64,000 nucleotides of DNA from Candidatus Scatomonas sp. (lineage in GTDB: Bacteria; Bacillota; Clostridia; Lachnospirales; Lachnospiraceae), in contig CAWVDN010000001.1 in the NCBI GenBank assembly GCA_963928055.1, positions 586,441 to 650,440 on the forward strand, written 5' to 3'. The position numbers were made by a program, and so were the translations under genes. Each line of letters begins with the position of its first letter. Within the stretch, counting starts at the first letter, position 1. This document shows, in pieces, positions 28,087 to 29,745 of this stretch. The notes beneath the pieces are model-generated. The model saw nothing but the letters and a program-made list of their open reading frames with translations. It was not told the origin of the DNA and made no database searches.

Positions 28087-29438
28087 CTAATTTTTCTTTG
28101 CCCACATTATAGTTCTGAACAGTTCACGGATTGTTATCCGCAATAACTCTGAATAATCTCTATGCTTATCTGCTCGTTCCAATGCCATATAGTATGATTC
28201 CTTTTCTGGAAACTTAAAATATATCGGCGGCAATCCTTTTTCCTCAGCATCCAATTTAACATTGCCCTGGAACTTCTTCCATTACCATCTCTGAATGGAT
28301 GGATTTGAGTAATCCGATGATGGATCTTTAACGCTTGTAATACATATTCACTGATTGTCAGTCGATCTGCATCCCGCACCAAATCTTCCACCGGATTTTG
28401 CAATTTTACCAGTTCTGCTGCAACTTCACGCCAATCAACTGTTTCAAATTTAGCTCCTAAAACAAGATTATTATCAATCCTTGTCTTCCCAGCTTCCTCT
28501 GGGTAATGCGCATACTGGAACAGTTTTTTATTCAGATCCAGCAGCTTATATATCGTCAGTTTATCCTCTGTTTCCAATATATAGTCATACAGTTCTGCAT
28601 GTCCAACTACTTGGATGATATCCTCATAACTTTCTTTACAATATAAACTGTCCTGACGGTTCATCCTTAAATCTGTAACAATTTCCGCGACTTCTTCTTC
28701 ATCCAAATCCAAACCTTCCATCCGATTCTCATTATAAATGAAATCATTTTTGAACCTATACCAAACGATGTCCGGCTCTATGGTGAAAAAGAACACATAG
28801 GAGTCTATCTCTTGACGAAGCAAATTGATGTTCTCTATTTCCATACCCATGGCAAGCTTTTTTCTATCTGGTCTGTAATCGGAAATTCTTTTGTTCAGAT
28901 TCTTATAATCGCCATCCAGTATGTGAAATGTATATGCCAAACGGAGTACACAGGAACGGAAACTTACTCCGAAGCGCTCTGCAATCTGCAACGCATCATC
29001 AAGGGAAACTTTCCCATTCTCTGCATACTCCTGTGCGACAGATAAGAATAATTTTCCAGGCATGAGCAGTTCCGCTGCAAACTGTTCTGCGAACCGCTCT
29101 GTCTCACTTCCATTGCCGCCTTTGGGACATATTTCGCTTCTGCGATCCTATAGATGATGACATAATTCATGGGCGGCAGTAAATCTCTGCCTGGTAATTT
29201 TCCTCTTATAATTGATACCAACAACAGGGAGATCATTTTCACCTTCTGGTACAAGATAAATACCTTCCAGATTTTCAAATTCCATAAGCTGATACACAAT
29301 TCCATATTCCCGCATCAGCTTAAACGGATCAATCGGAATAGAAGGCATTTCCTCTCCAAATCTGTCTTTCAGGACTTTTGCCGCCAATGCCTGCGGAGAC
29401 ATTCCAGGAGAATAAAAATTCTTCGATTCATTAACCAT
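28087..29438 (-). pseudogene. ImmA/IrrE metallopeptidase-Fic fusion gene broken by an in-frame TAG (29148-29150) and a 1-nt deletion (A5 run, 28237-28241)
   Basis: RQRFTAAHELCHHL*DRR...FAAELLMP continues in frame into HPFRDGNGRSSR; adding one A restores GLPPIY...YYMALERAD...*. Confidence 0.88.
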
Positions 29439-29745
29439 TCATGGTCTCCTTATATCTGCGTTTAAAATCAATGAGATTCATAATCTCTTTCCGATCCATA
29501 TCAGACAACTCTGAAAAAGCACGGGCAAACATCTCTACCTGCGCATCACCAGATGTCTTCCCATACATTAATTCGTCAACGCTTACTCCATACAATTTAG
29601 AAAATCCCGCAAGTTCCTCTGCTGTAACTTTTCTCTGTCCGGATTCAATCGCGCTGATCGTTGGTCTGGAAAGATGCATCTGACGAGCAACAAACTCCTG
29701 TGATAACTTCAAATATTTCCTTGCTTCCTTTAATCTCTCATGCAT
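29431..29745 (-). CDS. Xre-family HTH regulator overlapping the peptidase-Fic start
   Basis: MHERLKEARKYLKLSQEFVARQMHLSRPTISAIESG; GGAGG RBS. Confidence 0.9.
   Translation of the reverse strand: MHERLKEARKYLKLSQEFVARQMHLSRPTISAIESGQRKVTAEELAGFSKLYGVSVDELMYGKTSGDAQVEMFARAFSELSDMDRKEIMNLIDFKRRYKETMNG

What the first reader, a model, noticed from the sequence alone, without database searches (positions are those of the whole stretch)
28087..29745. Xre repressor + ImmA/IrrE-peptidase-Fic fusion module, doubly inactivated
Seen: an Xre gene overlaps a gene that, once the TAG and the 1-nt deletion are repaired, encodes an HExxH metallopeptidase fused to a Fic domain with a complete HPFxDGNGRxxR motif. 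The stop falls three codons after the second His of HELCH. Known: ImmA/ImmR, IrrE/DdrO and CapP/CapH pairs use DNA-damage-activated proteolysis of an HTH repressor, and CapP/CapH control defence operons; Fic domains AMPylate targets. Inference: a damage-sensing switch coupled to a toxin or modifier, perhaps once regulating the recombinase or the Lamassu-like operon in the same block. Two lesions suggest the product was costly.
Basis: partly seen in the sequence, partly recalled or inferred. Interest (0 to 1): 0.63.

Follow-up and report, generated by a model that had tools for sequence, protein, structure and literature searches.

The report
Broken repressor plus protease-Fic cassette
This is a dead copy of a small, self-regulated two-gene cassette, a repressor plus a repressor-cutting protease fused to a protein-modifying Fic enzyme. 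Related strains carry the same gene intact or broken in other ways, so they form a natural allelic series for an unstudied, probably toxin-like or anti-phage switch.

Summary
On the minus strand an intact 104-codon Xre gene (29745..29431) overlaps by 8 nt a gene for a Peptidase_M78-Fic fusion (29438..28087). That gene is broken by TAG at codon 97 and by an A5 run where intact relatives have A6.

The TAG is real. An independent sample carries it with an intact A6 run, so it came first.

In the same chromosomal site, other samples hold an intact allele or a different truncation (A7, 408 aa, 10 samples).

Intact 450-aa relatives are common. They are always paired with the same Xre and the same palindromic operator just upstream of the -35. 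Their neighbours differ: phage-like replication modules, serine-recombinase prophage ends, or housekeeping genes alone.

The N-terminal half resembles CapP/IrrE, including an invariant cysteine-switch-like Cys, but it has no GAF domain. The C-terminal half is a class-II-like Fic domain.

I read it as an autonomous CapH/CapP-like switch with a built-in Fic effector, now a pseudogene. Nothing links it to the recombinase or the Lamassu operon.

The parts
27924..29882 (-). Whole cassette: promoter/operator, xre, immA-fic pseudogene and 3' untranslated region. It is the unit shared with loci that have quite different neighbours.
   Evidence: 97.5-99.3% nucleotide identity to loci from other samples, with sharp ends at 29882 and 27924 in the phage-type loci.
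29802..29824 (.). Candidate Xre operator: perfect palindrome AAATGTCAGA-N3-TCTGACATTT, directly upstream of the -35.
   Evidence: The motif ATGTCAG-N5-CTGACAT is kept about 55-80 nt upstream of xre in homologous loci whose fusion proteins are 38-83% identical to this one (L102, L105, L108, L110, L129-L131, L133). It is the only perfect copy in the 2.59-Mb genome.
29769..29797 (-). Promoter-like site: -35 TTGGCT, 17-nt spacer, -10 TATACT.
   Evidence: Consensus scan. Phage-context alleles have TTGACT at the -35.
29431..29745 (-). xre: intact 104-aa HTH repressor gene of CapH/ImmR type.
   Evidence: HTH_3 E 9.8e-14. PADLOC capH E 6e-10 over nearly its whole length. Three window-private changes, all synonymous.
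29148..29438 (-). immA-fic, first fragment: 96 codons ending HELCHHL, then TAG (29150..29148).
   Evidence: Relatives have an invariant Lys at codon 97. The same TAG is present in L112, from an independent run.
28242..29147 (-). immA-fic, second fragment in the same frame. It holds the cysteine-switch-like loop (Cys104), the third zinc ligand (Glu114), the central helical domain, the ENRMEG inhibitory-helix-like motif and the Fic core up to HPFRDGNGRSSRAMLNWMLRKK.
28237..28241 (-). A5 homopolymer, the frameshift lesion. Intact relatives have A6, and a widespread truncated allele has A7.
28087..28236 (-). immA-fic, third fragment in the shifted frame: GLPPIYFKF...WAKKN plus stop. These are conserved C-terminal helices of the Fic core.
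   Evidence: It aligns to FICD [23 protein letters not shown].
27976..27997 (-). Weak terminator-like hairpin with a T run in the cassette's 3' region, upstream of the recombinase start (27920).
   Evidence: Consensus scan only.

Best explanation
The locus is a recently inactivated copy of an autonomous, horizontally mobile two-gene cassette.

How intact copies probably work:
1. A CapH/ImmR-like Xre dimer binds the 23-bp palindrome next to the -35 and represses its own bicistronic operon. This step is inferred from the conserved operator.
2. The second protein joins a CapP/IrrE-like zinc peptidase to a class-II-like Fic AMPylase. The peptidase has HExxH, Glu114 and an invariant Cys104 in a cysteine-switch-like loop. 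The Fic domain has a complete catalytic loop, a flap and an invariant Glu241-Gly242 at the position of the inhibitory helix.
3. Both activities are probably latent until an unknown cue arrives, such as phage infection or DNA damage. This step is inferred.
4. The cue opens the peptidase, which cuts Xre. The operon is derepressed, and the Fic domain modifies a cellular or phage target. The result would be growth arrest or abortive infection. This step is also inferred.

In this genome the nonsense codon between HExxH and the Cys loop kills the peptidase. It came first, and a later one-base loss in an A6 run removed the last 48 residues of the Fic core. Only the repressor, promoter and operator remain intact.
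For: - Domains and motifs.
- Intact 450-aa relatives at 90-99% identity, and 959 homologues with E <= 0.001 among the candidates scored.
- 128 clusters at 50% identity with E <= 1e-30, about 35 of them full length.
- Xre always lies upstream, usually overlapping the fusion gene by a few bases, and the operator is always present, in 20 or more loci with unrelated neighbours. These include two-gene inserts among housekeeping genes (L102-104, L110).
- One operator per locus, and only one perfect copy in the genome.
- PADLOC: capP 8e-23, capH 6e-10, RmrA 2.8e-13, PDC-S04 1.5e-22, SoFic 1.1e-12.
- AlphaFold model with pLDDT 90.4 and pTM 0.90.
- Foldseek: Fic half to FICD, BT_2513 and CdFic; N-terminal half to CapP 7t5t and IrrE.
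- Profile against the PDB gives the same families.
- CapP properties (cysteine switch, operator upstream of the -35).
- Intact alleles are under purifying selection, dN/dS 0.15-0.23.
- Order of lesions: L112 has TAG with A6.
- Patchy distribution, 5 of 301 genus representatives.
Against: - No experiment exists for any member. I found no paper on the fusion.
- The trigger, the Xre cleavage, and the Fic activity and target are all inferred.
- The closest intact alleles (P0010 and P0016, about 35 contigs read) sit at the head of a phage-like replication module. Other homologues lie beside serine recombinases at prophage ends. This also fits a role as the element's own lysogeny switch.
- The first residue of the inhibitory motif is Glu, not Ser/Thr.
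- The GAF domain that forms the ssDNA groove in CapP is absent.
Confidence: 0.55

Rival explanations
1. It is the ImmR/ImmA-type immunity (lysogeny) switch of a serine-recombinase phage-like element. The Fic domain serves as an added sensor or regulatory domain. The copy here decayed because the rest of the element was lost or replaced by the recombinase-Lamassu block.
For: - In about 35 contigs read, the closest intact alleles lie directly upstream of, and co-directional with, 71-aa and 102-aa ORFs, DUF2800/PDDEXK, an Enc34-type SSB, DNA polymerase A, Bro/ANT, VapE and SNF2.
- In a Selenomonas prophage the cassette follows a holin gene and three recombinase genes (same locus as viral contig L129).
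- In the window and in L094 the order xre, immA-fic, recombinase recalls immR-immA-int of ICEBs1.
- Five IMG/VR viral contigs carry the fusion.
- Most copies seen at the chromosomal site are broken. Those in phage-like context are intact.
Against: - Intact copies persist as bare two-gene inserts between housekeeping genes, with no element genes within 8 kb (L102-104 in a trp/rplY region, L110).
- There is only one operator per locus, in front of xre and not at any downstream early promoter.
- The cassette has its own conserved 3' region with a terminator-like hairpin.
- An intact allele also exists in the chromosomal site (L111).
- The Fic domain keeps every catalytic feature under purifying selection, which a mere sensor domain would not need.
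Confidence: 0.25
2. The A run is a contingency (phase-variation) tract. It switches the Fic C-terminus on and off (A5/A6/A7) while the peptidase is kept.
For: - Three tract lengths occur among alleles less than 2.5% diverged.
- A7 is found on two haplotype backgrounds, the P0026 type and the P0027-31 type. Each has an intact counterpart: P0001, P0002 and P0018.
- The two other A6 runs in the gene do not vary.
Against: - Six bases is short for a phase-variable tract.
- The run is not conserved in the family. Other members encode RLKG or RIKG.
- The A7 haplotypes share flanking SNPs, so a single origin plus recombination is possible.
- In the window the upstream TAG makes any switching moot.
Confidence: 0.07
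3. One or both lesions are sequencing or assembly errors, and the gene is intact in the organism.
For: - The genome is in 5 contigs, which may mean long-read assembly. Homopolymer miscounts are typical of such data.
- A5 is seen only in this window.
Against: - The TAG is present in an independent run (L112, Logan ERR3339031), whose haplotype is the closest to the window's.
- There is no other coding indel in 11.5 kb compared with a relative.
- Even if A5 were an error, the gene would still be broken by the TAG.
Confidence: 0.1

Closest known systems
CapH/CapP regulators of CBASS and other immune operons (Lau et al. 2022, bioRxiv 10.1101/2022.04.27.489752; Calloji et al. 2026, 10.64898/2026.05.16.725639), related to DdrO/IrrE and ImmR/ImmA
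   Same: - A repressor of about 100 aa with an HTH, plus an M78 zinc peptidase encoded next to it.
- The operator lies just upstream of the -35.
- HExxH plus Glu, with a conserved Cys on a strand between them, like the cysteine switch.
- Best PADLOC hits are capP 8e-23 and capH 6e-10. Foldseek hits CapP 7t5t.
   Different: - There is no GAF domain. In CapP and IrrE the GAF domain forms half of the ssDNA groove. A Fic domain is fused in its place.
- There is no separate regulated immune operon. The only conserved 'cargo' is the fused Fic domain itself.
RosmerTA (RmrT/RmrA) anti-phage toxin-antitoxin systems (Millman et al. 2022, 10.1101/2022.05.11.491447; Ernits et al. 2023, PMC10440598), and the Xre-COG2856-toxin three-component TA predicted by Makarova et al. 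2009 (PMC2701414)
   Same: - It combines an HTH, an M78 peptidase and a toxin-type domain in a small mobile cassette.
- RmrA profiles hit both the Xre (7.8e-7) and the peptidase (2.8e-13).
   Different: - In RmrA the HTH and the peptidase are one polypeptide and the toxin is separate.
- Here the HTH is separate and the peptidase is fused to the putative toxin.
- No RosmerTA toxin of Fic type is described in the papers I could read.
Class II Fic AMPylases (FICD/HYPE, C. difficile CdFic, BT_2513) and the Fic defence entries SoFic and PDC-S04
   Same: - The HPFxDGNGRxxR loop, the flap, and a Glu-Gly at the position of the inhibitory helix N-terminal to the core.
- Profile hits: FICD 4.9e-16 and CdFic 5.6e-12. 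PDC-S04 1.5e-22 and SoFic 1.1e-12.
   Different: - It is fused to a peptidase and paired with a repressor.
- The first motif residue is Glu rather than Ser/Thr.
- It has no TPR domain (FICD) and no wHTH domain (SoFic).

Membership tests
CapH/CapP | Small Xre-type HTH repressor with a C-terminal oligomerisation part, encoded beside the peptidase | tested here: met
   104 aa. The capH profile covers residues 3-95, E 6e-10. It is always adjacent in the 20 or more loci examined.
CapH/CapP | M78 zinc peptidase with HExxH plus a downstream Glu ligand | tested here: met
   H90, E91, H94 and E114 are invariant in 83 homologues. capP profile E 8e-23. In the window itself the gene is cut between H94 and E114.
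CapH/CapP | Cysteine-switch loop over the active site (present in about a third of CapPs) | tested here: inconclusive
   Cys104 is invariant, lies on a predicted strand (102-105) and sits between HExxH and E114. Zinc coordination was not examined.
CapH/CapP | C-terminal GAF domain that forms the ssDNA-binding groove | tested here: not met
   Residues 220-450 are a Fic domain. No GAF match was found.
CapH/CapP | Controls an adjacent immune operon | tested here: not met
   The neighbours differ in every context. The single operator lies before xre itself.
ImmR/ImmA of ICEs and phages | Repressor and anti-repressor pair inside a mobile element, controlling its excision or early genes | tested here: inconclusive
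   It sits at the head of a phage-like replication module or beside recombinases in many loci. It is a bare two-gene insert in others. No operator was found at downstream promoters.
RosmerTA | RmrA antitoxin with HTH and peptidase in one protein, plus a separate RmrT toxin gene | tested here: not met
   The HTH is on a separate 104-aa protein. The peptidase is fused to Fic.
Fic AMPylase (class II) | Catalytic loop HPFx[D/E]GN[G/K]R | tested here: met
   HPFRDGNGRSSR in the window. H380, P381, F382, G385, N386, G387 and R388 are invariant, and D384 is nearly so.
Fic AMPylase (class II) | Inhibitory helix motif (S/T)xxxE(G/N) N-terminal to the core | tested here: inconclusive
   E237-N-R-M-E241-G242. 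E237, N238 and E241 are invariant in 83 homologues; G242 is invariant in the 12-sequence alignment. By offset, E241 pairs with E35 of CdFic and E237 with S31. The first residue is Glu, not Ser/Thr.
Fic AMPylase (class II) | AMP transfer to a protein target | not testable with these tools
   This needs biochemistry.
SoFic / PDC-S04 single-gene Fic defence | Stand-alone Fic protein that confers phage resistance | tested here: not met
   The Fic half hits these profiles, but the protein is a fusion with an obligatory Xre partner. Defence activity was not tested.
Phase-variable contingency gene | Hypermutable repeat conserved in the gene family and mixed within populations | tested here: inconclusive
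   A5, A6 and A7 alleles exist. The tract is short and not conserved in the family. Reads could not be examined.

The most novel reading that the evidence does not exclude
The Xre + peptidase-Fic cassette is a new type of one-polypeptide sensor-effector immune or toxin system. A CapP-like protease whose GAF sensor has been replaced by a Fic AMPylase both derepresses its own operon and carries out the toxic modification. In gut Lachnospiraceae populations its Fic part is repeatedly switched off at one short A tract, leaving the protease intact. This would be natural evidence that the Fic activity, not the switch, is what costs the host.
Probability: 0.2. Interest if true: 0.7.

Novelty: new variant of a known kind. 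Interest (0 to 1): 0.42.

Why it matters
CapH/CapP, IrrE/DdrO and ImmA/ImmR show how bacteria and their mobile elements turn a damage or infection signal into gene expression by cutting a repressor. RosmerTA and SoFic show that M78 peptidases and Fic enzymes each take part in phage defence.

This family joins the two in one protein. It drops the GAF domain that senses ssDNA in CapP, so it poses two clear questions: what opens the protease, and what does the Fic domain modify?

The locus itself is dead. But the same site holds an intact allele, a widespread A7 truncation and the TAG allele in other samples. Together they form a ready-made allelic series for testing whether the Fic activity is costly.

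Tried and rejected
The TAG was confirmed indirectly, through an independent assembly.
It returned nothing closer than 31% identity over the Fic region, a few short segments apart.
The position of the recombinase in those elements stays unknown.
4. GenBank phages (INPHARED) hold no full-length fusion, only separate M78 or Fic hits. A single-protein scan of IMG/VR found nothing. The alignment scan found five fusions.
5. Recoding of TAG was rejected. TAG ends 7 of 40 long ORFs in the window, and Lys97 is invariant in relatives.
6. A programmed frameshift at the A run was rejected as a family feature, because the run is absent in more distant members.
7. L092 had looked like an intact allele in the chromosomal site. 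It is probably an assembly chimera. Its cassette is base-identical to the phage-type copy, its left flank is chromosomal, and the contig ends exactly where the contexts diverge. L111 is the reliable intact allele at this site.
8. Literature searches for an M78-Fic or ImmA-Fic fusion found no description.

Full report
**What is in the sequence**

All features lie on the minus strand.
- An intact 104-codon gene (29745..29431) encodes an Xre-type HTH protein (HTH_3 E 9.8e-14).
- Its last eight bases (ATGGTTAA) contain the start codon (29438) of a second gene.
- That gene reads MVNESKNF...TAAHELCHHL and then TAG (29150..29148).
- The same frame continues through ...ERFAEQFAAELLMP... and a long helical region to HPFRDGNGRSSRAMLNWMLRKK.
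- At an A5 run (28241..28237) the frame is lost.
- The conserved continuation GLPPIYFKFPEKESYYMALERADKHRDYSELL...WAKKN lies in the neighbouring frame and ends at 28087.
- Read through the TAG, the protein scores Peptidase_M78 at 2.5e-15 and Fic at 4.3e-12.

**Are the lesions real?**

A search with the conceptual product found many 450-aa proteins at 90-99% identity with both domains. All have Lys at position 97 and RKKGLPP at the A run. Lys97 is invariant in 83 full-length homologues down to 49% identity.

I aligned 15 near-identical loci from other samples at the DNA level.
- The window has T where all but one locus have A (AAG).
- It has five A where the others have six or seven.
- The exception is L112, a contig from an independent public run. 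It carries the same TAG with an intact A6 run, and its haplotype is the closest to the window's.

So the nonsense mutation is inherited, not an error, and it preceded the frameshift.

The A5 is so far unique to this genome. Across 11.5 kb shared with a related contig, however, this is the only indel inside coding sequence. TAG is a normal stop here, ending 7 of 40 long ORFs in the window.

**An allelic series at one chromosomal site**

The same site runs fab genes, MarR, ArsP, rlmD, GNAT, xre, immA-fic and the 5' end of a serine recombinase gene. Other samples hold these alleles there.
- An intact allele: L111, which matches the window from 30364 to 27880 at 98.9%.
- A 408-aa truncation: it ends RKKRIAADIF and is caused by A7 in the same run. 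It occurs in ten samples, in assemblies whose names indicate SPAdes and MEGAHIT (L094-L101, L113, L114).
- The TAG allele: L112. Its short contig covers only the cassette, so its flanks were not seen.

A7 occurs on two haplotype backgrounds, each with an intact counterpart. Shared flanking SNPs leave a single origin plus recombination possible.

There are therefore at least two independent primary knock-outs (Lys97 to stop, and A6 to A7) plus a secondary one (A6 to A5). Intact alleles evolve under purifying selection, with dN/dS 0.15-0.23.

L092 first looked like a second intact allele here, but it is probably a chimeric assembly.

**What the cassette is**

The region 29882..27924 (1.96 kb) is 97.5% identical to loci whose flanks are unrelated to the window's, and it has sharp ends.

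I examined more than 20 loci whose fusion proteins are 31-99% identical to the window's conceptual product.
- The fusion gene is always preceded by the Xre gene, usually overlapping it by a few bases.
- A palindrome, ATGTCAG-N5-CTGACAT, is kept in nearly all of them (not clearly in the most distant, L132). It lies 55-80 nt upstream of xre, directly before a TTGAC-like -35.
- Each locus has this palindrome once before xre, and no comparable copy at a neighbouring promoter.
- In this genome the copy before xre is the only perfect one. The window has no other match even with three mismatches.

The neighbours differ widely.
- In about 35 contigs read, a small sigma-like gene lies upstream, and 71-aa and 102-aa ORFs, DUF2800, an SSB, DNA polymerase A, Bro/ANT, VapE and SNF2 lie downstream.
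- In a Selenomonas prophage the neighbours are a holin gene and three recombinase genes.
- One locus has a tyrosine-integrase fragment.
- Elsewhere there are only housekeeping genes: a trp/rplY region in three samples, and downstream of rlmH in a complete genome.

The fusion is patchy. It occurs in 5 of 301 genus representatives of the same family. There are 128 clusters at 50% identity with E <= 1e-30, about 35 of them full length. Five IMG/VR contigs carry it.

This is how an autonomous, mobile, self-regulated unit behaves. It is often carried by phage-like and recombinase elements but does not depend on them.

**Domains and likely mechanism**

PADLOC profiles place the N-terminal half closest to CapP (8e-23), then RmrA of RosmerTA (2.8e-13). 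The Xre is close to CapH (6e-10). The C-terminal half is close to the Fic candidate PDC-S04 (1.5e-22) and SoFic (1.1e-12).

An AlphaFold model built with 83 homologues is confident and compact, with pLDDT 90.4 and pTM 0.90. Foldseek matches the Fic half to FICD/HYPE, BT_2513 and C. difficile Fic. It matches the N-terminal 178 columns to CapP (7t5t) and IrrE. A profile search of PDB sequences agrees.

Invariant residues:
- H90, E91, H94 and E114, the zinc site.
- C104, which sits on a predicted strand between HExxH and E114. This recalls the CapP cysteine switch.
- E237, N238 and E241, with G242 (invariant in the 12-sequence alignment). By offset, E241 aligns with the inhibitory Glu35 of CdFic.
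- Nearly the whole Fic loop.

The family lacks the GAF domain. In CapP and IrrE that domain forms the ssDNA groove together with the peptidase. A damage or ssDNA trigger therefore cannot simply be assumed.

My best reading has four steps.
1. Xre represses its own operon at the palindrome.
2. The peptidase-Fic protein is doubly latent.
3. An unknown cue opens the peptidase, which cuts Xre.
4. The derepressed Fic enzyme modifies a target and arrests growth or aborts infection.

Only the anatomy and its conservation are shown. Binding, cleavage, trigger and target are inferred.

**The main rival**

The cassette could be the ImmR/ImmA-type lysogeny switch of the phage-like elements that most often carry the intact close alleles. 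Its position between recombinase and replication genes supports this, and so does the decay seen at the chromosomal site.

Four points speak against it:
- Intact stand-alone copies exist.
- There is a single operator.
- The cassette has its own 3' region.
- The Fic domain keeps a complete catalytic site under selection.

I give this rival about 0.25.

I found nothing that links the cassette to the recombinase or to the Lamassu operon, which earlier notes e1-5185399 and e1-5185400 describe. There is no second operator, and in other strains the cassette is followed by a different recombinase (only 44% identical overall) or by phage genes.

'Two lesions' is weak evidence for cost, because the second lesion hit a gene that was already dead. 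The independent, widespread A7 truncation is better evidence. It spares the peptidase and removes conserved helices of the Fic core. Relaxed selection is not excluded.

**Comparison with what is known, and novelty**

Automated annotation already names such proteins 'ImmA/IrrE family metallo-endopeptidase' or 'ImmA/fido'. Makarova et al. 2009 predicted three-component toxin-antitoxin systems of Xre, COG2856 and a toxin. RosmerTA and SoFic are validated defence systems.

I found no paper describing the peptidase-Fic fusion. Other agents of this scan have flagged the same family in other genomes, one copy also with a stop codon. I treat those notes as leads only.

The family is a new variant of a known kind. 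This copy is a pseudogene of it. Interest is moderate. It rests on the allelic series and on the clear architecture: a CapP-like switch without GAF, with a built-in Fic effector.

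Noticed in passing
window 15011-15736 (-): A second, stand-alone Fic-domain gene (241 aa, Fic E 4.2e-16) lies in the same accessory region. The genome holds four further Fic-like matches elsewhere.
   Followed up: partly
window 27613-27920 (-) and L094:11522-13084: The first roughly 310 nt of the serine recombinase gene are about 98% identical to those of related strains. Beyond that the genes diverge: the 512-aa protein here is 44% identical overall to the 520-aa protein of L094, which is followed by a further recombinase-like gene. 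So there is a recombination breakpoint inside the recombinase gene, which bears on note e1-5185401.
   Followed up: partly
window 29792-29797 and 29802-29824: Chromosomal-site alleles have -35 TTGGCT, and phage-context alleles have TTGACT. Each lineage also carries its own single change in one operator half-site: L088 has CTAACAT and L094 has ATGTCCG. The window's palindrome is perfect.
   Followed up: no
L088:1-9500 (also L089, L090): Upstream of the intact cassette in the phage-like element lies a defence-rich stretch: a NACHT/SNaCT14 protein, RE_NgoFVII, Z1, Vsr, a DNA methylase, and a small sigma-70 region-4-like gene directly before xre.
   Followed up: no
L092 (ena:ERZ28616109 scaffold_2739): This contig joins the chromosomal left flank to a cassette that is base-identical to the phage-type copy. 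It ends exactly where the two contexts diverge, so it is probably a chimera assembled across a repeat.
   Followed up: partly
P0056, P0085, P0087, P0083, P0086 (homologues at 72-92% identity): Further truncated or frameshifted versions of the fusion exist in more distant relatives. One example is a frameshift inside the Fic loop (HPFRDGNVTTRY...). Some may only be cut by contig ends.
   Followed up: no
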